Positions 25,384 to 64,000 of a stretch of 64,000 nucleotides of DNA are shown here, in pieces. The translations under genes and the position numbers were made by a program. This stretch comes from a phage. How positions within the stretch are numbered: position 1 is the first letter of the stretch; every line of letters starts with the position of its first letter. The stretch lies in sequence record PZ379177.1; one strand, 5' to 3'. The notes under the pieces are model-generated. The model did no database searches. It saw nothing but the letters and a program-made list of their open reading frames with translations, and was not told where the DNA came from.

Positions 25384-25599
25384 ATGAAACTAATCGACCG
25401 CGCCATCAAAGTCATTGATAATCACTCCACCGCGCTTGCTTTCGTGATGGGATTTTGTTTCACTGCTGCGTTTGGCGACGTTCACACATTCAAGTCTGTC
25501 ATCTTGTGCTGGTCCATTTGGTCACTTATTTCTCTGGTTTTGATTCTTCCGATGACATGGCTTGTTCTTACTTGTCTGGAATCTCAAGGTGAAGACTGA
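25384..25599 (+). CDS. Small membrane protein (holin-like candidate)
   Basis: 71 aa, two predicted hydrophobic helices; RBS CCGGAGGTAATATG. Confidence 0.5.
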   Translation: MKLIDRAIKVIDNHSTALAFVMGFCFTAAFGDVHTFKSVILCWSIWSLISLVLILPMTWLVLTCLESQGED

Positions 25600-25820
25600 T
25601 GAGGCTATCAATCAAAGAGCGGGCAAAGCGACCCAAAAGGAGTGAGCCAAAGTCCAAATACACATGCATCGGCGGACCATTCGACGGTCAAGTGATGTGG
25701 CTTTCAAAATCTAATCCATCGACGGTTGAGTTCAGCCTTCATGGAATGCGCGGCAGATACCTGCTAAATAGAGAAACAAGTGGCAGTACATTCGTGGAGT
25801 GGAAAGAAAATGGCAAATGA
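25599..25820 (+). CDS. Hypothetical basic protein
   Basis: 73-aa ORF whose start overlaps the upstream stop. Confidence 0.45.
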   Translation: MRLSIKERAKRPKRSEPKSKYTCIGGPFDGQVMWLSKSNPSTVEFSLHGMRGRYLLNRETSGSTFVEWKENGK

Positions 25821-26043
25821 ATTGACTTTAACAGTACCAAAAGAAGTGCTAGACAAGGCATATGCAGATTCTGTAAAAGAATTGGCTGGAGTGCTTGGAA
25901 TTGAAAATGAATTCAACGTTCAGCTGCAATTCCTTAAGGATACTCTTCAGATTAAAGAGAACAGAGAGGCGGGAAGTGGTGCGCCTTTAGCTTTAGCAAT
26001 CCTCTATGCGGGACTTGTTTTGCAATCTGGAGATGAACTGTGA
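25810..26043 (+). CDS. Hypothetical protein
   Basis: Track ORF 25780-26043 trimmed to ATG 25810 (MANELTLTVPKEV...). Confidence 0.45.
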   Translation: MANELTLTVPKEVLDKAYADSVKELAGVLGIENEFNVQLQFLKDTLQIKENREAGSGAPLALAILYAGLVLQSGDEL

Positions 26044-26239
26044 ATCGTTGGTGCAGTTGGAAGTTGAAACGTCTCGCCTGGGCCAATGCCGCCAATTCTG
26101 CTGGCCCAATCACCGCTGGTGTTGGGTCGATATGGGATGGTGAGGGCCGTTGGGACTCGCTGTGTGGCACGCGCTTATTCTTTCGCGTAAAATAATATTC
26201 GCCCTTCCCACATCGGGAAGGGAATTTAAAGAGGTTATC

Positions 26240-26581
26240 ATGAACAACACTTTATCACAACTTCTAATATGGACCATCGCCGCTATCATCGGCACCGTTA
26301 TTATGATGTCAAGTGCAAAGGCCGATACGGATATTTGCGGCAGACTTATGTCTGAGAATGGCGAGATTTATTATGGCAACTCAAAAGGTGATTATATATC
26401 GACTGAAGTTTGCGCTCAGAAGAAAGCAGAAATGCAAAAGCAGTATCATGAAGATCAATCCATATCTCAGGCCGCGCTGATTGAATTAAGTATATCAGCC
26501 ATCATCTTTCTAATCGTTTTTATGCTCATTATTAAACCAAATAATGACAGCAACCGTCATATTCCTCTCAAAAGAAATTAA
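26240..26581 (+). CDS. Secreted/membrane-anchored protein
   Basis: Start set at ATG 26240 with RBS AAGAGG. N-terminal signal-like helix MNNTLSQLLIWTIAAIIGTVIMMSSAKA and a C-terminal hydrophobic helix. Confidence 0.5.
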   Translation: MNNTLSQLLIWTIAAIIGTVIMMSSAKADTDICGRLMSENGEIYYGNSKGDYISTEVCAQKKAEMQKQYHEDQSISQAALIELSISAIIFLIVFMLIIKPNNDSNRHIPLKRN

Positions 26582-45287: not shown

Positions 45288-45432
45288 ATTCCTTAACAAA
45301 TTCAGAGTAGTGTTGGGCCGCAGCCGCTTGATGGTGAGCCATGACTCCTTGAAGGGTCGGAAGCTCTGCTGGTTTAGGTTCTAACGACTTTAACAGACAT
45401 TCAACCTCGATGTTCAATTCTTCGCTTTGCAT
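45288..45432 (-). CDS. Small ORF (47 aa)
   Basis: ATG with AGAGGTGA RBS; product MQSEELNIEVECLLKSLEPKPAELPTLQGVMAHHQAAAAQHYSEFVKE. Below the track cutoff. Confidence 0.3.
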
Positions 45433-45490
45433 GAATCACCTCTGCTTCAGTTCATAAAATGATTATAGTTGCTATGAAAATAAAAGCAAA

Positions 45491-46573
45491 CTATTTTATG
45501 CCACCTGCACGACGATTTATCATGTCAAGTTGATTCTCAATATAAGGCATGACGATTGCTTCAACAAAAGCAGTCCAACCTTTCTTGCCTTCCCCTTTCC
45601 GGTGACAGTCGTGAGCGCAACCGAAAACGAATTCATGTTCAGCGCCAGGGATTGGGCCGCGAAAATAAGCGCCGTATGGGTCGCCGTTGGTGTGTTCTTC
45701 ACCCCAAGGACAGATGATGCGGCATTTGCCTGACATGTTTTCAACAACATCGCCATCGGACCCTTCACCCATCTTATTGCGAGCAAGGATTTGCTGGGCT
45801 ATTTTATACCAAACAGCATCATATTTGTATTCGTCAACGTCAATTTGAATTTCACGCTTTTGCGGCATAACGACGTGGAAACCGAAGGCTTGGCAAATCT
45901 CTTCGATTGTGTAGCGCAAAGAATAGTCTGCATGAACAAGTCGGCAGCGGAACGGGTCGCCGTTCTCATCGACATATTTATAGGGGCCGTCGTGAGTCAC
46001 ACGCTTGTTGTTGATGCACCCAGGAACACGGCCCACGCGCGTTACGTCTTTAATCGTGTTGTCGCCGCCCTTCTTGAGTACCATGTTAACGAAAGACCCA
46101 AGGAACGCTTTGAACTGAATAAGATGGTCAATCGGTTCTTTAAAGAAGTACCAAAGCTGGTGGTTGTTCGGTGAAGTCTCGACGATGACAGTCGGCTTCA
46201 GTCGCTCGAAAAAGAATTCCAAATCTAAATCGCCTTTGGACCCTTTACCGTGACCGATGTCGTCGACCATCATCGCCATACCGTGACCAAAGGCCGACTC
46301 TGTACGCCAGTATCGCATCTCACCCGTCTTTGGGTTGGGAGACTTACGCATCGAACTGATGCAAGCATAGCCGTTTTGGTGCTGCATGAGCGGCTTGCCC
46401 AACTTCCAAGGCTTAGGCCAGAAGCTGCTGTTGATCTTCTTGCCGCGTTCGTCGGTCTGTACCGTTGCTTCAGGAGCAAACACCGTCATGACGCGCTCAT
46501 CTTCTGGAATGCCTCTTTGGAGTTCTGTTAAAAACTCTTCGATTATTTTTGCTTCTTCTCTTAAACTAGCCAT
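45491..46573 (-). CDS. PrimPol-like (archaeo-eukaryotic-type) primase with C-terminal Cys/His cluster
   Basis: 360 aa; acidic MVDDIGHG, then ETSPNNHQLWYFF (SxxxxH motif), and C-terminal CPWGEEH...CAHDCH. Confidence 0.65.
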   Translation of the reverse strand: MASLREEAKIIEEFLTELQRGIPEDERVMTVFAPEATVQTDERGKKINSSFWPKPWKLGKPLMQHQNGYACISSMRKSPNPKTGEMRYWRTESAFGHGMAMMVDDIGHGKGSKGDLDLEFFFERLKPTVIVETSPNNHQLWYFFKEPIDHLIQFKAFLGSFVNMVLKKGGDNTIKDVTRVGRVPGCINNKRVTHDGPYKYVDENGDPFRCRLVHADYSLRYTIEEICQAFGFHVVMPQKREIQIDVDEYKYDAVWYKIAQQILARNKMGEGSDGDVVENMSGKCRIICPWGEEHTNGDPYGAYFRGPIPGAEHEFVFGCAHDCHRKGEGKKGWTAFVEAIVMPYIENQLDMINRRAGGIK

Positions 46574-49377: not shown

Positions 49378-50373
49378 ATGAACATGAAACAACCTGTAAT
49401 GATTATCGGCGGCGGCTTGGCAGGACTTATTACCGCGTGTCACTTCCCGAACTCTATTGTGTACGAAGCAGGGGAGCGAGCGCCACAGCACAAGGCGCTG
49501 CTACGCTTTCGCGGCGAAGAAGTAAGCCGTATTACCGGAATACCTTTTAAGGCCGTGACAGTTGACAAGGCTGTGTATTTTCGCGGTAACTACTACCACG
49601 ACCATTGCCCAATTAACCTTGCAAATATGTATTCCATGAAGGTCACCAATCAGTTTGGCAGCCGTTCAATCATGAAGCTTAAGACTGCAACGCGTTATAT
49701 TGCGCCTGATGACTTTTATGATCAGCTTGTCGACAAACTGGGTGACCGCATATTCTTTAATACTCCGGTTGATACTCTTTGCGGCTATAGCGAGACGCCA
49801 ATCATCAACACGTCGCCGCTGCCAGTAATGATGAAGCTTGCTGGGATTGATCAAAAGCTTGATTTCTCATTTGATAAAGCAAACATTCGCGTTTACCGCT
49901 TTAAGATTAAACGTAAGTGTGATTTGTATCAGACAATTTACTTCCCTGACTACTCCGTCAGAACTTACCGCGCATCAATTACTGGTGACACACTTATCAT
50001 TGAAACCATTCCTTTGGTCAGCGTGAGTGAAGCTGCAGTTGAAGCCGCTGGCGGCATCACTCGTTACCGTGACATGAAGCTGCGCGCAGAAGTCGACGAA
50101 GTGTTGACAGCCTTTGGCCTCTCATGGAGTGACATCGCTCTTGAAGAAGTTGAAAAGGTCGACCAGAAATATGGCAAGATTGTCGACATTCCGAAAGACT
50201 TGCGACACGCCCTACTCCTGCAGCTGACCATGGATTTAAACGTGTTTAGTGTCGGTCGATTTGCTACCTGGCGCAACATTTTGCTTGATGACGTCGCTCA
50301 TGACCTTGTTGAAGTTGAAAAACTCATCAAAGCAAATAACTATCAAAAATTTGCTTATATTGCTAATAAATAA
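49378..50373 (+). CDS. FAD/NAD(P)-binding Rossmann-fold oxidoreductase-like protein
   Basis: 331 aa; N-terminal dinucleotide-binding motif VMIIGGGLAGLITA (GxGxxG). Confidence 0.55.
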   Translation: MNMKQPVMIIGGGLAGLITACHFPNSIVYEAGERAPQHKALLRFRGEEVSRITGIPFKAVTVDKAVYFRGNYYHDHCPINLANMYSMKVTNQFGSRSIMKLKTATRYIAPDDFYDQLVDKLGDRIFFNTPVDTLCGYSETPIINTSPLPVMMKLAGIDQKLDFSFDKANIRVYRFKIKRKCDLYQTIYFPDYSVRTYRASITGDTLIIETIPLVSVSEAAVEAAGGITRYRDMKLRAEVDEVLTAFGLSWSDIALEEVEKVDQKYGKIVDIPKDLRHALLLQLTMDLNVFSVGRFATWRNILLDDVAHDLVEVEKLIKANNYQKFAYIANK

Positions 50374-59508: not shown

Positions 59509-59772
59509 ATGGTACGCATCCTTGAACGTTACAAAAATGAAGCTACTGGCGCAATCGCTTTCAAACGTCTTTTGGTCAAAGAAATTGACGGGATGTTCCG
59601 CGTTGTTAAAGAGTTTGATTATGGCAACGGTGCTGGGGTGAATACCGTTATTATGCCTGGCATCAAGGCGTATAAAACCTTGAAAGGCGCTGAGAAGGCT
59701 TTGGCGGCTTGGAAGCCTGAACGTTATCAAATGACCCGTGTTGAAGGGCTAATGCAAGAAGGTAAAATATGA
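59509..59772 (+). CDS. Hypothetical protein
   Basis: 87-aa ORF. Confidence 0.5.
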   Translation: MVRILERYKNEATGAIAFKRLLVKEIDGMFRVVKEFDYGNGAGVNTVIMPGIKAYKTLKGAEKALAAWKPERYQMTRVEGLMQEGKI

Positions 59773-60326
59773 GCAATATTAATTGGGAAGATGATTTGCC
59801 GCAGGTCGCTCCTGAGAGCATTCAAGAGCGCCTTGCGCGCTTAGTATCTGAACTGGCAGAACGCCAAGAAGCTTTGACAGAGCTTGAAGATGAAGCTGAT
59901 ATGCAAAAGCAGCGAATCAGTGAAATCAAAACTGTTCTGCTTCCTGGCGTTATGGATGAGCTTGGCGTGTCCGAAATCAAGCTTGAGGACAAGACCAAAA
60001 TCAAGGTCGAGTCCAAGGTGAATGCTTCAATCAAGAAAGAAAACGAATTAAAAGTTTTCGATTGGCTTGTCAACAACGGTTACGGCGGCTTGATCAAGTC
60101 CAGCGTCACGGCTGAGTTCGGTCGCGAAGAAATCGAACAGGCGCAAGAGATTGTTGCCGCGCTGCGTGAAGATGGTGTTGAAGTCACATTGAAACAAGGC
60201 GTTCATTCTGCTACACTGAAGTCATTTGTAAAAGAACAGCTGGAAGCAGGCAATCCAGTTAGTGAAGATATTAGCGTTTTTGAATACAAAGAAGCTAAAA
60301 TAACCTTGCCTAAAAGCAAAAAGTAA
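59769..60326 (+). CDS. Hypothetical coiled-coil protein
   Basis: 185-aa ORF; acidic coiled-coil N-terminus. Confidence 0.5.
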   Translation: MSNINWEDDLPQVAPESIQERLARLVSELAERQEALTELEDEADMQKQRISEIKTVLLPGVMDELGVSEIKLEDKTKIKVESKVNASIKKENELKVFDWLVNNGYGGLIKSSVTAEFGREEIEQAQEIVAALREDGVEVTLKQGVHSATLKSFVKEQLEAGNPVSEDISVFEYKEAKITLPKSKK

Positions 60327-61246: not shown

Positions 61247-61303
61247 TCGACAATCAAATCAACAAGGCTGCCGATTGGCGGCCTTTTATTTATCTGGTGC
61301 ATC

Positions 61304-61822
61304 ATGATAGAAAGAATTGTACCGCTCCTGAAGATTCTGGCCCTTGTTGGCGCATTTGCCGCTGGATCATACGTTGAAGACCTGCAGCAAACCAACGCAT
61401 CACTGGCCAAGGATAATCAATATCTGACATCGCTTAATGAGCGTAAGGACAAGATAAATGCACTCGAAGAGCAAATTGCATCTTTACAGGTTGAATCGGC
61501 ATCGGCATATGAGAAGGGTCGCCAGGAAGCGCAACTGGTTGCTGATGACACTATTGCTAGTTACAAGTCTGGGAATATCAAGCTGCGCGAGCAACTCAGC
61601 TGCTCCCGTGAGTTACTCAGGAGTATGCCCGACTCTGCGACCACTGGACGCCTCTCTATCCCAGAAGGAAACTGTGGACTATCAGAAGAAGATGTCAGAT
61701 TTCTTGTTCAGTTCGCCGCAGAAACAAACCGATTAAAAGAGAAGGTTAATAGCTTGATTGATACTTATAATCAGGCTAAAATAAAAATCGATCAATTCAA
61801 TGCATCAAAGGAAAATAAATGA
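61304..61822 (+). CDS. Putative i-spanin (Rz-like)
   Basis: 172 aa; N-terminal transmembrane helix (IVPLLKILALVGAFAAGSYV) followed by coiled-coil; a lipoprotein ORF is embedded in the +1 frame. Confidence 0.5.
   Translation: MIERIVPLLKILALVGAFAAGSYVEDLQQTNASLAKDNQYLTSLNERKDKINALEEQIASLQVESASAYEKGRQEAQLVADDTIASYKSGNIKLREQLSCSRELLRSMPDSATTGRLSIPEGNCGLSEEDVRFLVQFAAETNRLKEKVNSLIDTYNQAKIKIDQFNASKENK
61509..61736 (+). CDS. Putative o-spanin (Rz1-like lipoprotein) embedded in the i-spanin gene
   Basis: ATG at 61509; product MRRVARKRNWLLMTLLLVTSLGISSCASNSAAPVSYSGVCPTLRPLD... with a lipobox-like ISSC and a Pro-containing mature region. Lies wholly inside 61304-61822 in another frame. Confidence 0.45.
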   Translation: MRRVARKRNWLLMTLLLVTSLGISSCASNSAAPVSYSGVCPTLRPLDASLSQKETVDYQKKMSDFLFSSPQKQTD

Positions 61823-62412
61823 AACAGATTTATGCAAACATTCGCCAGTGGGCTTCTGACCGTAACATCATCCAAGGTTGCGACCTTAAGGACCAATACC
61901 CGAAGCTTATCAGCGAGTTTGGGGAGTTAACCGACCACGTTGATCAACTCCATGACCTTGTGTTCTTTGACCCTGAAATCGGATATACAGAGCAGGCCAT
62001 TTGTGATTTGCAAGCCGCAATCAAGGACGACATCGGTGATTGCCTTGTTGTGTTAACTATTCTTGCCGCGCAAAATGGTGCAAAAATCGAAGACATCAAC
62101 GGCGGCGGTTGCGCTGACAAAGGCGCTCACCCTCATTCCTTTATCCTTCGCTTGGCGAAGACTCTCGGACGGCTTGGTGACGCCATTGCTAAAAATCAAA
62201 GCATGGATATTGATGTCACTATCATGGCCGCAGTCGATTATCTTTCCGGCGTAGCGCATGATTATGGACTTCGACTGTCTGATTGCGCTCAAGCCGCCTA
62301 TGAAGACATCAAGGACCGTAAAGGTGTGATGTACAACGGAACGTTTATCAAATCGACTGATCAGGCTTATGCCTATGCGCTGGAACAAGTGATGAATAAG
62401 GAGTTTGAGTGA
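61819..62412 (+). CDS. MazG-like nucleotide pyrophosphohydrolase
   Basis: 197 aa; EExGE-like LISEFGELTDHV and DDIGDCLVVLTILAAQNGAKIEDI. Confidence 0.6.
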   Translation: MKQIYANIRQWASDRNIIQGCDLKDQYPKLISEFGELTDHVDQLHDLVFFDPEIGYTEQAICDLQAAIKDDIGDCLVVLTILAAQNGAKIEDINGGGCADKGAHPHSFILRLAKTLGRLGDAIAKNQSMDIDVTIMAAVDYLSGVAHDYGLRLSDCAQAAYEDIKDRKGVMYNGTFIKSTDQAYAYALEQVMNKEFE

Positions 62413-63386
62413 TGGCAGGAGAAATCAAAGCATTAAAACCAATGAAAGGTTGCCAGCGTAAACAAATCATCGAGCGCGGCGAAGATGTGCCGCTGCCTTG
62501 CGGATTATCCTTCAAGGTCGATGGAATACGCGCGATGGCGTATGACAACTTGCCAATGGGCACATCCGGCATGGCACTGCGCAACATTCAAATCAAAAAA
62601 GAGTTCCTATTCTTGGGTGAATTGATTCACGGACTTGATGGAGAGCTAATTGACGGTAATCCGAATGACAAGAACGTCATGCAACAGGCCTATACTGCAT
62701 GCATGAACACTGATGCAATCACTAACTTTACATGGTGGGTGTTTGATGACTTCAGCGACCCTGATTTGCCTTTTGAAAAGCGTTATGCAAACTATCGCGC
62801 TAGAGTTGCTGAAGTCAATCAGCACCTCATCAACCATGGTCGACGCCCATTCCTTCGCGCTCTCGAATATCGAAACATCGAAAATATGGAACAGTACGCG
62901 GCGATGCAAATCGAAGCAGACCAACTTGGCTATGAAGGCTTGTATGGCAAGTCTTGGACGGGCAAATACAAGCATGGCCGCGCGACGCCAAAGTCACGTG
63001 ATGTGTGGAAGGACAAGCCGTGGACCGATGAGGAAGGACTGATCATAGACTTCGTTGAGATGATGGAGAACAACAACGAAGCATTCATTGATGAGTTGGG
63101 TCGCACTAAGCGTTCGAAAGAGGCTGAAGGCTTAGTTGCAAAAGGATACCTTGGATCATTTGTGGTTGTCAATCCAAAATATGTTGATGAGAAAGGTGAA
63201 ATGATTCCTTTCCGCGTCTCCGCTGGTTCAATGCCTATGGCAGAGAGAAAAATGCTTTGGGAGAATCGCGAGAATTATCGCAACAAGTATCTGACATATA
63301 AATTCTTCAACTTTGGCATCGTTGACGTGCCGCGCTCTGCCTTGTATAAATGCTTCCGTGATATTACCGATATGGAGTATTTTTAA
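62409..63386 (+). CDS. ATP-dependent DNA (or RNA) ligase
   Basis: 325 aa; nucleotidyltransferase motif I LSFKVDGIRAM (KxDGxR) and motif EGLVAKG. Confidence 0.7.
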   Translation: MMAGEIKALKPMKGCQRKQIIERGEDVPLPCGLSFKVDGIRAMAYDNLPMGTSGMALRNIQIKKEFLFLGELIHGLDGELIDGNPNDKNVMQQAYTACMNTDAITNFTWWVFDDFSDPDLPFEKRYANYRARVAEVNQHLINHGRRPFLRALEYRNIENMEQYAAMQIEADQLGYEGLYGKSWTGKYKHGRATPKSRDVWKDKPWTDEEGLIIDFVEMMENNNEAFIDELGRTKRSKEAEGLVAKGYLGSFVVVNPKYVDEKGEMIPFRVSAGSMPMAERKMLWENRENYRNKYLTYKFFNFGIVDVPRSALYKCFRDITDMEYF

Positions 63387-63471
63387 CACACTGGATAAAT
63401 AATTGGTGCGTATAATCTATCGCGCCGTTTTCTAGAATTTAATATACAGTGTATACATAAAGCCGGAAATT

Positions 63472-63497
63472 TCCGGCTTTTCTTTTATTTACTTTCG
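63472..63497 (+). terminator. Rho-independent terminator
   Basis: Hairpin AGCCGGAAATTTCCGGCT followed by TTTTCTTTT, downstream of the ligase gene. Confidence 0.65.
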
Positions 63498-63561: not shown

Positions 63562-64000
63562 ATGAAAGCGAACAAATTAAAGATTGTTTTGATCATCATC
63601 ATGGCTATGCTGACAGTTATATTCTTCACCAAGACTGCATCGGCTGAAAATATGTTTACGCCGCCGAATGGAAGTGCAAAAGTTTTGACAAGATATTTCA
63701 ACAATGGGCAGTCATTTGAGTTTTGCTGGAATAAATACGACGTAATAAAAGAAAGATTTGACAAAGAAAAGATGTGCGTAATGAATGATCGCGGTCGGCA
63801 GGTCGTGTCGTTTGTGTTCGGAATGTCAATGGCAAAAGTTGATGCCCCTGAAATCGTTGTCAGGTATAATACATTGGACAGCGGCCTTGTCGACAAGACA
63901 TACCCTGTTGCAGTAGACAGCAGGACAGGCGGCGCACTAATACTCACTCCAGAAGATAAATCAGATGTCGTTAACATGCTCATCAACAGCAAAGACGTAA
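63562..64000 (+). CDS. Secreted protein, partial (3' end beyond the window)
   Basis: ATG with AAAGGTGA RBS; signal-peptide-like N-terminus MKANKLKIVLIIIMAMLTVIFFTKTASA; no stop before the window end. Preferred over the antisense track ORF 63510-63992. Confidence 0.5.
   Translation, partial: MKANKLKIVLIIIMAMLTVIFFTKTASAENMFTPPNGSAKVLTRYFNNGQSFEFCWNKYDVIKERFDKEKMCVMNDRGRQVVSFVFGMSMAKVDAPEIVVRYNTLDSGLVDKTYPVAVDSRTGGALILTPEDKSDVVNMLINSKDV

What the first reader, a model, noticed from the sequence alone, without database searches (positions are those of the whole stretch)
61304..61822. Embedded spanin-like gene pair inside the replication module
A 172-aa protein with one N-terminal transmembrane helix and coiled-coil fully contains, in the +1 frame, an ORF encoding a lipoprotein signal (MRRVARKRNWLLMTLLLVTSLGISSC...). 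This is the embedded Rz/Rz1 architecture. No endolysin or holin is adjacent; the pair sits between an SSB-like gene and MazG/ligase genes.
Basis: partly seen in the sequence, partly recalled or inferred. Interest (0 to 1): 0.45.

Follow-up and report, generated by a model that had tools for sequence, protein, structure and literature searches.

The report
Known embedded spanin pair, PB1-like coliphage
This is a genuine pair of overlapping phage genes (an inner-membrane and an outer-membrane "spanin") that break the host's outer membrane at lysis, but the same pair in near-identical phages was catalogued in 2018 and is annotated in GenBank, so it is ordinary.

Summary
ORF 61304..61822 (+, 172 aa) has one N-terminal transmembrane helix and a mostly helical periplasmic domain. 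It fully contains, in the +1 frame, an ORF ending at 61736. From ATG 61509 that ORF encodes a 75-aa lipoprotein precursor, MRRVARKRNWLLMTLLLVTSLGISS|C.

The window is a Wifcevirus, a PB1-like E. coli myophage 95-98% identical to ECML-117, WFH and Mansfield. Kongari et al. 2018 list the ECML-117 pair as an embedded two-component spanin at the same offset (205 nt, 75 aa). The GenBank records of Mansfield and of Bas98, Bas99, Bas100 and Bas101 annotate an i-spanin (or "Rz-like spanin") and an o-spanin here.

Independent support: i-spanin homologues at 24-28% identity in Pantoea, Yersinia and Burkholderia phages all carry an embedded +1 lipoprotein ORF. Those ORFs are 43-47% identical to this one. 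Two of the homologues sit in holin-endolysin-spanin cassettes. A profile of the o-spanins aligns with lambda Rz1 (92% probability), matching both cysteines.

The endolysin is about 2.5 kb downstream on the opposite strand, just past the window end. No holin was identified. Function has not been tested experimentally in this genus.

Verdict: real, correctly interpreted, already known, low interest.

The parts
61264..61295 (+). Intrinsic-terminator-like hairpin (AAGGCTGCC-GATT-GGCGGCCTT) plus T-rich tail, ending 9 nt before the i-spanin ATG
   Evidence: Terminator scan. The Mansfield record annotates a terminator at the equivalent position.
61304..61822 (+). i-spanin gene (172 aa). N-terminal TMD at about residues 5-24 (nt 61316-61375). 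Helical periplasmic domain with a non-helical linker at residues 115-127. Periplasmic Cys100 (nt 61601-61603) and Cys124 (nt 61673-61675).
   Evidence: ORF. PHROG 1327 Rz-like spanin, E=1e-26. Hydropathy. AlphaFold2 single-sequence secondary structure H5-88, H92-114, H128-170. Cys100 invariant in 5 divergent homologues. 98.8% identical to the ECML-117 i-spanin, which is listed in PMC6139136.
61509..61736 (+). o-spanin gene, +1 frame, wholly inside the i-spanin gene (75-aa precursor). Signal peptide residues 1-25, lipobox ISSC (nt 61575-61586), lipidated Cys26 (nt 61584-61586), Ala at +2, second Cys40 (nt 61626-61628). The mature lipoprotein is 50 aa.
   Evidence: Same offset (205 nt) and length (75 aa) as the ECML-117 o-spanin in Kongari 2018. 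Homologous embedded ORFs in LIET2, Nafs113, PY54, Mica and P744. hhalign against lambda Rz1 gives 92% probability.
61458..61508 (+). Possible 17-codon N-terminal extension of the o-spanin. This alternative ATG has an AAGGA Shine-Dalgarno-like motif 8 nt upstream and is the start used in the Mansfield, Bas99 and Bas101 GenBank records inspected. Either start gives the same mature lipoprotein after signal peptidase II cleavage.
   Evidence: Both ATGs are conserved in 9 Wifcevirus genomes. Divergent homologues have 14-19 residues before the Cys (16 for the candidate GTG start I chose in P744), which favours 61509.
61819..62412 (+). MazG-like pyrophosphatase gene. Its ATG overlaps the i-spanin stop codon (ATGA). 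Context only, not part of the spanin.
62409..63386 (+). ATP-dependent DNA ligase gene. Its start overlaps the MazG stop codon. Context only.
63459..63490 (+). Terminator-like hairpin that closes the spanin-MazG-ligase block
   Evidence: The Mansfield record annotates a terminator at the equivalent position.

Best explanation
The locus encodes a two-component spanin of the embedded (lambda Rz/Rz1) architecture in a Wifcevirus, a PB1-like E. coli myophage.

Shown from sequence:
- The 172-aa product of 61304..61822 has an N-terminal TMD and a long helical domain with a central linker and two Cys.
- The +1-frame gene, most likely starting at 61509, has a lipobox and a non-Asp residue at +2.

Inferred from established knowledge of spanins, not shown for this phage:
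- The 172-aa protein is a type II inner-membrane protein whose helical domain extends into the periplasm.
- The inner gene product is lipidated at Cys26, cleaved by signal peptidase II and sorted by Lol to the inner leaflet of the outer membrane.
- The C-termini of the two subunits bind, and disulfide-linked homodimers form a complex that spans the periplasm and is held in place by the peptidoglycan meshwork.
- When a still unidentified holin releases the GH19 endolysin and the murein is degraded, the complexes are freed. They collapse and fuse the inner and outer membranes, which completes lysis.

Transcription, also inferred: the genes lie in a terminator-flanked block with MazG and DNA ligase, on the strand of the replication genes. 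They are probably transcribed by read-through of the upstream terminator. Early synthesis would be harmless, because spanins stay inactive until the peptidoglycan is degraded.
For: - PHROG 1327 'Rz-like spanin', E=1e-26.
- TMD, lipobox ISSC, Ala at +2 and the Cys positions.
- Helix-linker-helix prediction.
- 29 phage records carry a 95-99% identical i-spanin. Mansfield annotates i-spanin and o-spanin; Bas98, Bas99, Bas100 and Bas101 annotate 'Rz-like spanin' and o-spanin.
- Kongari et al. 2018 list ECML-117 as embedded, i-spanin 45375-45894 and o-spanin 45461-45689, 75 aa.
- Five divergent homologues all keep an embedded +1 lipoprotein ORF with invariant Cys26, Cys40-Pro41, Asp57, Met62 and FLF65-67. 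The o-spanins are 43-47% identical, against 24-28% for the i-spanins.
- The PY54 and Mica homologues lie directly after holin and endolysin genes.
- The o-spanin profile against lambda Rz1 gives 92% probability, E=6e-7, with both Cys aligned. The i-spanin profile against lambda Rz gives 70% probability over 45 columns, up to the conserved Cys (window Cys100; by my count lambda Rz Cys99).
- The embedded ORF, both candidate ATGs and the lipobox are intact in all 9 Wifcevirus genomes compared.
- It is the only plausible lipoprotein signal in the six frames of the window.
- No homologue of the PB1-type u-spanin is present, so this pair is the only spanin candidate found.
Against: - No experimental test exists for this genus. 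I found no paper reporting complementation or mutants.
- The window's i-spanin has no Pfam hit at E<=0.1. The link to lambda Rz is only 70% probability over 45 columns.
- Within the genus, substitutions in the o-frame are 6 synonymous to 11 non-synonymous. Purifying selection on the inner frame is therefore not demonstrable from close relatives alone.
- ATG 61509 has no obvious Shine-Dalgarno sequence, whereas 61458 has one, so the true start is unresolved.
- The mature o-spanin has only 4 Pro in 50 residues, which by my recollection is less proline-rich than lambda Rz1.
- No dedicated signal-peptide or lipoprotein predictor was available. The lipobox was called by pattern and hydropathy.
- No holin was identified.
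Confidence: 0.9

Rival explanations
1. Only the outer gene is functional. It encodes a membrane-anchored coiled-coil protein, and the nested ORF is an untranslated by-product of the outer gene's sequence.
For: An alternative-frame ORF of at least 92 codons arises in 4.3% of synonymous shuffles. ATG 61509 has no clear Shine-Dalgarno sequence. Within the genus the o-frame shows 6 synonymous to 11 non-synonymous changes. The embedded protein has only a weak PHROG hit, E=0.005.
Against: A lipoprotein-like signal arises in only 0.65% of shuffles. Five phages whose outer proteins are only 24-28% identical all keep an embedded +1 ORF with a lipobox, and its product is more conserved (43-47%) than the outer protein. 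A profile of these ORFs matches lambda Rz1 with both Cys aligned. The Mica record annotates its counterpart as an o-spanin.
Confidence: 0.04
2. The pair is a spanin by descent but is dispensable or inactive in this phage. Outer-membrane disruption would be carried out by another factor, such as a disruptin-type peptide or an unrecognised u-spanin, with the pair surviving as a passenger in the replication operon.
For: The pair is detached from the endolysin and embedded in a block with MazG and ligase behind a terminator. The syntenic slot in Pbunavirus, Kylevirus and Myosmarvirus holds an unrelated 201-aa membrane protein, so the slot is exchangeable.
Against: Both frames are intact, with conserved starts, lipobox and cysteines, in all 9 genomes compared at the DNA level, and the i-spanin is 95-99% identical in 29 records. 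No homologue of the PB1 u-spanin is present. No other lipoprotein signal occurs in the window. Unlinked but essential spanins are known from T4 (PMC6139136).
Confidence: 0.05
3. The outer protein has a non-lysis role linked to DNA replication or nucleotide metabolism, as its neighbours might suggest, for example anchoring a replication complex to the membrane.
For: Only position: its stop codon overlaps the MazG start codon, and MazG in turn overlaps the ligase start.
Against: There is no similarity to any replication family. The only family hits are Rz-like spanin PHROGs. Homologues sit in lysis cassettes. The bulk of the protein lies C-terminal to a single N-terminal TMD and carries Cys residues conserved in the homologues, as in periplasmic spanin domains.
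Confidence: 0.01

Closest known systems
Escherichia phage ECML-117 embedded i-spanin/o-spanin (Kongari et al. 2018, BMC Bioinformatics 19:326, PMC6139136), also annotated in phage Mansfield (QEG09882/QEG09883) and in Bas98, Bas99, Bas100 and Bas101
   Same: The i-spanin is 98.8% identical. The lengths are the same (172 aa and 75 aa), as are the 205-nt offset of the inner gene, the +1 frame and the flanking genes.
   Different: Only a few substitutions, for example S86R and M107V in the i-spanin. GenBank records use the upstream ATG (92 aa), whereas Kongari uses the 75-aa start.
Phage lambda Rz/Rz1, the prototype embedded two-component spanin
   Same: Embedded +1 architecture. N-terminal TMD, helical domain, linker, helical domain. 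Lipoprotein with a second Cys shortly after the lipidated Cys. The o-spanin profile aligns with Rz1 over 54 columns with both Cys matched (92% probability). The i-spanin aligns with Rz over 45 columns up to the conserved Cys.
   Different: Sequence similarity is marginal: no Pfam PF03245 hit for the window protein. The mature o-spanin is longer (50 aa, against 40 aa by my recollection) and less Pro-rich. It is not the last gene of an S-R-Rz cassette but sits between a gene of unknown function and MazG.
Phage T4 PseT.3/PseT.2 spanins
   Same: Spanin genes are located away from the holin and endolysin genes (PMC6139136, Fig. 8 legend).
   Different: The T4 genes are separated, not embedded, and no sequence relationship was tested or expected.
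Spanins of Yersinia phage PY54 (gp62), Pantoea phages LIET2/Nafs113, Burkholderia phage Mica and Yersinia phage P744
   Same: These are true homologues of both subunits: 24-28% identity for the i-spanin and 43-47% for the o-spanin. They share the embedded +1 layout and the conserved cysteines.
   Different: The PY54 and Mica pairs follow a holin and an endolysin directly. Signal peptides are shorter, 14-19 residues before the Cys against 25 here.
PB1-type unimolecular spanin (Pbunavirus, AWAC lipobox, for example 14-1 gp07)
   Same: It is the spanin type of this phage's nearest large relative group, which shares the genome backbone.
   Different: It is a single 133-aa protein with a lipobox and a C-terminal TMD, encoded near the terminase gene. 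There is no homologue in the window. The Wifcevirus lineage uses a two-component spanin instead.

Membership tests
Two-component spanin, embedded architecture (Rz/Rz1 type) | i-spanin has a single N-terminal transmembrane domain, with the bulk of the protein C-terminal to it (periplasmic) | tested here: met
   Hydropathy maximum of 2.1 for residues 5-21, and no other hydrophobic segment. The region is predicted helical. No dedicated topology predictor was available.
Two-component spanin, embedded architecture (Rz/Rz1 type) | The periplasmic domain of the i-spanin is largely alpha-helical or coiled-coil, interrupted by a linker | tested here: met
   The AlphaFold2 single-sequence model gives H5-88, H92-114, a coil at 115-127 and H128-170, with mean pLDDT 69.9. 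The Kongari supplement lists one coiled-coil segment for the ECML-117 i-spanin.
Two-component spanin, embedded architecture (Rz/Rz1 type) | o-spanin is a small lipoprotein with a signal peptide ending in a lipobox with an invariant Cys | tested here: met
   MRRVARKRNWLLMTLLLVTSLG-ISSC. It has a positively charged n-region, a hydrophobic h-region and the lipobox ISSC. The Cys is invariant in 5 homologues and 9 close relatives. This is a pattern-based call, not a LipoP or SignalP prediction.
Two-component spanin, embedded architecture (Rz/Rz1 type) | Outer-membrane sorting: the residue after the lipidated Cys is not Asp (Lol avoidance signal absent) | tested here: met
   The mature N-terminus is C-A-S-N. 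The rule comes from established knowledge of E. coli lipoprotein sorting.
Two-component spanin, embedded architecture (Rz/Rz1 type) | The o-spanin gene lies entirely within the i-spanin gene in the +1 frame | tested here: met
   61509..61736 (or 61458..61736) lies inside 61304..61822, with frame offset 1.
Two-component spanin, embedded architecture (Rz/Rz1 type) | Periplasmic cysteines are available for homotypic intermolecular disulfides | tested here: met
   i-spanin Cys100 is invariant in the homologues and Cys124 is present in 4 of 5. o-spanin Cys40 is invariant. Whether disulfides actually form cannot be tested here.
Two-component spanin, embedded architecture (Rz/Rz1 type) | Location in or next to a holin-endolysin lysis cassette (usual but not obligatory) | tested here: not met
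   The flanking genes are a Pam3 gp34-like gene, MazG and ligase. In relatives the endolysin is about 2.5 kb away on the other strand. No holin was found. T4 shows that this feature is dispensable.
Two-component spanin, embedded architecture (Rz/Rz1 type) | Function: required for outer-membrane disruption, and complements lambda Rz/Rz1 defects | not testable with these tools
   No experimental report for this genus was found in the searched library.
Two-component spanin, embedded architecture (Rz/Rz1 type) | The C-terminal ends of the i- and o-spanin interact to bridge the periplasm | not testable with these tools
   No complex-prediction tool was available.
PHROG 1327 (Rz-like spanin) | Significant match to the family profile over most of its length | tested here: met
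   E=1.1e-26, residues 6-160 against profile positions 9-156 of 158.
Pfam PF03245 Phage_lysis (bacteriophage Rz lysis protein) | Score above the Pfam gathering threshold | tested here: not met
   The window protein has no Pfam hit at E<=0.1. The LIET2 homologue scores 22.3 bits, below the 25.4 cut-off. hhalign of the 5-sequence profile against lambda Rz gives 70% probability over 45 columns. This indicates a distant relationship only.
Lambda Rz1-like o-spanins | Detectable homology to Rz1, including the lipobox Cys and the second Cys | tested here: inconclusive
   hhalign of the 5-sequence o-spanin profile against lambda Rz1 gives 92% probability, E=6e-7 over 54 columns, with both Cys aligned. 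The sequences are short and of low complexity, and the profile is shallow.

The most novel reading that the evidence does not exclude
Spanin type may have been swapped within one conserved phage backbone. In Pbunavirus, Kylevirus and Myosmarvirus the slot between the gp34-like gene and MazG holds a 201-aa glycine-zipper membrane protein (phrog_1544, unknown function, possibly holin-like). Pbunaviruses encode a u-spanin elsewhere. Wifceviruses lack both and instead carry a PY54/LIET2-type embedded spanin in that slot, read from the replication-gene operon behind a terminator. A further unexcluded twist is that the two conserved in-frame starts (61458 with a Shine-Dalgarno-like motif, 61509 without) give two precursor forms with different processing kinetics. 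That would be a dual-start control on a spanin, by analogy with holin/antiholin pairs.
Probability: 0.12. Interest if true: 0.35.

Novelty: already known. Interest (0 to 1): 0.1.

Why it matters
It matters little beyond correct annotation. It confirms that this phage has a complete outer-membrane disruption function and shows that several GenBank records of the genus still label one or both genes 'hypothetical'. The modest added value is comparative. The o-spanin family shared with PY54, LIET2, Mica and P744 is well conserved and distantly Rz1-like. Kongari et al. 2018 treated ECML-117 and PY54 as singletons, and these comparisons link them. The holin of this genus remains unidentified.

Tried and rejected
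- Pfam on both proteins gave no hits at E<=0.1.
- A PDB sequence search with the upstream 'SSB-like' protein found nothing, and a literature check on Pam3 gp34 was uninformative. The SSB label could be neither supported nor refuted.
- tblastn against the window found no significant match for the Mansfield endolysin, the 201-aa slot protein of Kyle, MyoSmar and steven, or the 14-1 AWAC u-spanin and its neighbours.
- PHROG searches of small membrane-protein ORFs (25384-26581) and of the two small genes next to the endolysin in Mansfield gave no lysis family, so the holin was not identified.
- The IMG/VR scan with the i-spanin returned only 4 near-identical loci and one weak one. It was not useful for divergence analysis.
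- Within-genus substitution counts were too few to show purifying selection on the inner frame, so I relied on the divergent homologues instead.
- The Kongari supplements held as text did not contain the PB1 u-spanin sequences. I recovered one from the phage 14-1 genome instead.
- The Mansfield genome announcement says nothing about lysis genes.

Full report
**What is there.** The window carries an ATG-initiated ORF at 61304..61822 (+, 172 aa). Wholly inside it, in the +1 frame, is an ORF at 61458..61736 (92 aa). An internal ATG at 61509 in that ORF gives MRRVARKRNWLLMTLLLVTSLGISSC... (75 aa).

The outer protein has one hydrophobic segment, at its N-terminus. The 17-residue Kyte-Doolittle maximum is 2.1 for residues 5-21. 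A single-sequence AlphaFold2 model (mean pLDDT 69.9) predicts helices at 5-88, 92-114 and 128-170, with a non-helical linker at 115-127.

The inner product has a positively charged n-region, a hydrophobic h-region and the lipobox I-S-S-C. The residue after the Cys is Ala, so there is no Asp retention signal. A second Cys lies 14 residues further on.

**Is it more than chance?**
- I ran 20,000 shuffles that keep the outer protein sequence and permute synonymous codons. An alternative-frame ORF of at least 92 codons appeared in 4.3% and one with a lipoprotein-like signal in 0.65%. This control is conservative, because the fixed protein sequence determines two of every three bases of the +1 frame.
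- A six-frame scan of all 64 kb for lipoprotein-like signals found this ORF and one other, at 49378. I judge the second a false positive, because its sequence looks like a Rossmann-type glycine-rich motif.

**Where the window comes from.**
- The 4-kb surroundings are 95-98% identical to Wifcevirus genomes. These are PB1-like E. coli and Shigella myophages: EC150, WFH, ECML-117, Mansfield, FEC19, Bas98, Bas99, Bas100 and Bas101.
- 29 records encode an i-spanin 95-99% identical to this one.
[quoted passage not shown] The Bas98, Bas99, Bas100 and Bas101 records annotate 'Rz-like spanin' plus 'o-spanin'.
- Kongari et al. 2018 (PMC6139136) list ECML-117 among the embedded two-component spanins, as a singleton family for both subunits. 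Their supplementary tables give the i-spanin at 45375-45894 and the o-spanin at 45461-45689. That is a 205-nt offset and 75 aa, which corresponds exactly to ATG 61509 here.
- The finding is therefore already in the literature and in public annotation.

**Independent evidence that the inner frame is a gene.** Within nine Wifcevirus genomes the inner ORF, both candidate ATGs and the lipobox are all intact. There are only 17 substitutions in the overlap: 9 synonymous and 8 non-synonymous in the outer frame, and 6 synonymous and 11 non-synonymous in the inner frame. That is too few to show selection.

The decisive evidence comes from distant homologues of the outer protein, which are 24-28% identical to it: Pantoea phages LIET2 and Nafs113, Yersinia phages PY54 and P744, and Burkholderia phage Mica.
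- Every one contains an embedded +1-frame ORF with a lipobox ([IM]SGC).
- The mature sequences align with the window's at 43-47% identity.
- The invariant positions are the lipobox Cys, the second Cys followed by Pro, Asp57, Met62 and Phe-Leu-Phe 65-67.
- The inner product is thus better conserved than the outer one, which an untranslated frame would not be.
- In PY54 the homologue directly follows a holin and a glycoside hydrolase. In Mica it follows a class II holin and a SAR endolysin and is annotated as i-spanin and o-spanin.

**Relation to the prototype.**
- A profile of the five o-spanins aligns with lambda Rz1 over 54 columns (92% probability, E=6e-7). The lipidated Cys and the second Cys both match.
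- The i-spanin profile aligns with lambda Rz over 45 columns (70% probability), up to the conserved Cys, which is Cys100 in the window protein.
- The window protein does not reach any Pfam family, including PF03245. It matches PHROG 1327 'Rz-like spanin' at E=1e-26.
- It therefore works like, and is distantly related to, Rz/Rz1, but it belongs to its own subfamily shared with PY54, LIET2, Mica and P744.

**Start codon of the inner gene.**
- ATG 61458 has an AAGGA motif 8 nt upstream and is the start used in the Mansfield, Bas99 and Bas101 records inspected.
- ATG 61509 has no obvious Shine-Dalgarno sequence and is the start used by Kongari et al..
- The homologues have 14-19 residues before the Cys, or 16 for the candidate GTG start I chose in P744. 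That favours 61509 (25 residues) over 61458 (42 residues).
- Either start yields the same mature lipoprotein after signal peptidase II cleavage.
- This question remains unresolved.

**Genomic context.**
- A terminator-like hairpin at 61264-61285 with a T-rich tail ends 9 nt before the i-spanin ATG. No sigma-70-like promoter was found between them.
- The i-spanin stop codon overlaps the MazG start codon (ATGA), and the MazG stop codon overlaps the ligase start.
- A second terminator follows at 63459-63480. Mansfield annotates both terminators.
- By inference, the spanin genes are read together with MazG and ligase, probably by terminator read-through. Early synthesis would be harmless, because spanins act only after the murein is degraded. 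That last point rests on established knowledge of lambda and T4.
- The endolysin is absent from the window. In Mansfield and Bas101 a GH19 endolysin without an N-terminal hydrophobic segment lies about 2.5 kb downstream, at the end of the convergent tail-gene operon. That is about 360 nt beyond the window end.
- Detached spanin genes have a precedent in T4.
- No holin was recognised among the small membrane proteins tested.

**Comparative note.** The gene order helicase, gp33-like, gp34-like, [slot], MazG, ligase, then a convergent endolysin is conserved in Pbunavirus, Kylevirus and Myosmarvirus. In those phages the slot holds an unrelated 201-aa protein: a glycine-zipper N-terminus with one or more hydrophobic segments in the C-terminal half, phrog_1544, and only sub-threshold Pfam hits.

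Pbunaviruses instead use a unimolecular spanin of about 133 aa with an AWAC lipobox (PMC6139136). I located it in phage 14-1 as gp07, near the terminase gene. The window has no homologue of it or of the slot protein. So the spanin type differs within one backbone. This fits the mosaic distribution that Kongari et al. describe and is not a new principle.

**Verdict.** The feature is an ordinary embedded two-component spanin that has already been described bioinformatically, though it has never been tested experimentally in this genus. Interest is low.

Noticed in passing
window 61304-61822 slot; L003:3416-4021, L004:3623-4228, L006:3330-3935, L019:37881-38486: In Pbunavirus, Kylevirus and Myosmarvirus the syntenic slot between the gp34-like gene and MazG holds an unrelated 201-aa membrane protein instead of spanins. 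It has a glycine-zipper N-terminus and falls in phrog_1544, with only a sub-threshold GTA_holin_3TM hit, and that in one member. The window has no homologue of it.
   Followed up: partly
L019:3258-3659 (Pseudomonas phage 14-1 gp07); whole window: The PB1-type unimolecular spanin (AWAC lipobox, C-terminal TMD) lies near the terminase gene in 14-1. It has no homologue anywhere in the window, so the spanin type differs between closely related backbones.
   Followed up: yes
L015:1967-2233 and L015:2493-2687; L005:3493-3687: The Pantoea phage Nafs113 record labels a separate upstream lipoprotein (ORF67) as 'putative o-spanin'. Both Nafs113 and LIET2 also carry an unannotated embedded +1 ORF that is 47% identical to the window's o-spanin. 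That embedded ORF is the likelier o-spanin.
   Followed up: partly
window 59769-60326: The DUF7307 / Pam3 gp33-like protein has Pbunavirus homologues that some annotations call 'u-spanin' (for example JJ01 ORF85, PMC9583000). The window protein has no lipobox and no transmembrane segment, so that label looks like an annotation error.
   Followed up: partly
window 25384-26581 (+); L001:7620-7832: There is a cluster of small predicted membrane proteins: 71 aa with 2-3 hydrophobic segments, 77 aa with a C-terminal TMD, and 113 aa with an N-terminal signal or TMD plus a C-terminal TMD. A 70-aa gene also abuts the endolysin in Mansfield. None matches a lysis PHROG. They are the only holin candidates seen, and the genus's holin is unidentified.
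   Followed up: partly
window 63562-64000 (runs off the end): This ORF encodes a protein with an N-terminal signal-peptide-like segment (MKANKLKIVLIIIMAMLTVIFFTKTASA...). It is the homologue of the 180-aa Mansfield_054 and lies between the ligase gene and the convergent endolysin. Its function is unknown.
   Followed up: no
window 61811 equivalent in L010 (phage WFC): A 1-nt insertion near the 3' end of the i-spanin gene in WFC-type genomes shortens the product to 170 aa and changes how its stop codon overlaps the MazG start.
   Followed up: no
window 49378-50373: This ORF of about 330 aa has an N-terminus (MKQPVMIIGGGLAGLITAC) that mimics a lipoprotein signal. It looks like a Rossmann-type glycine-rich dinucleotide-binding motif. 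The homologous gene is annotated as hypothetical in Bas101.
   Followed up: no
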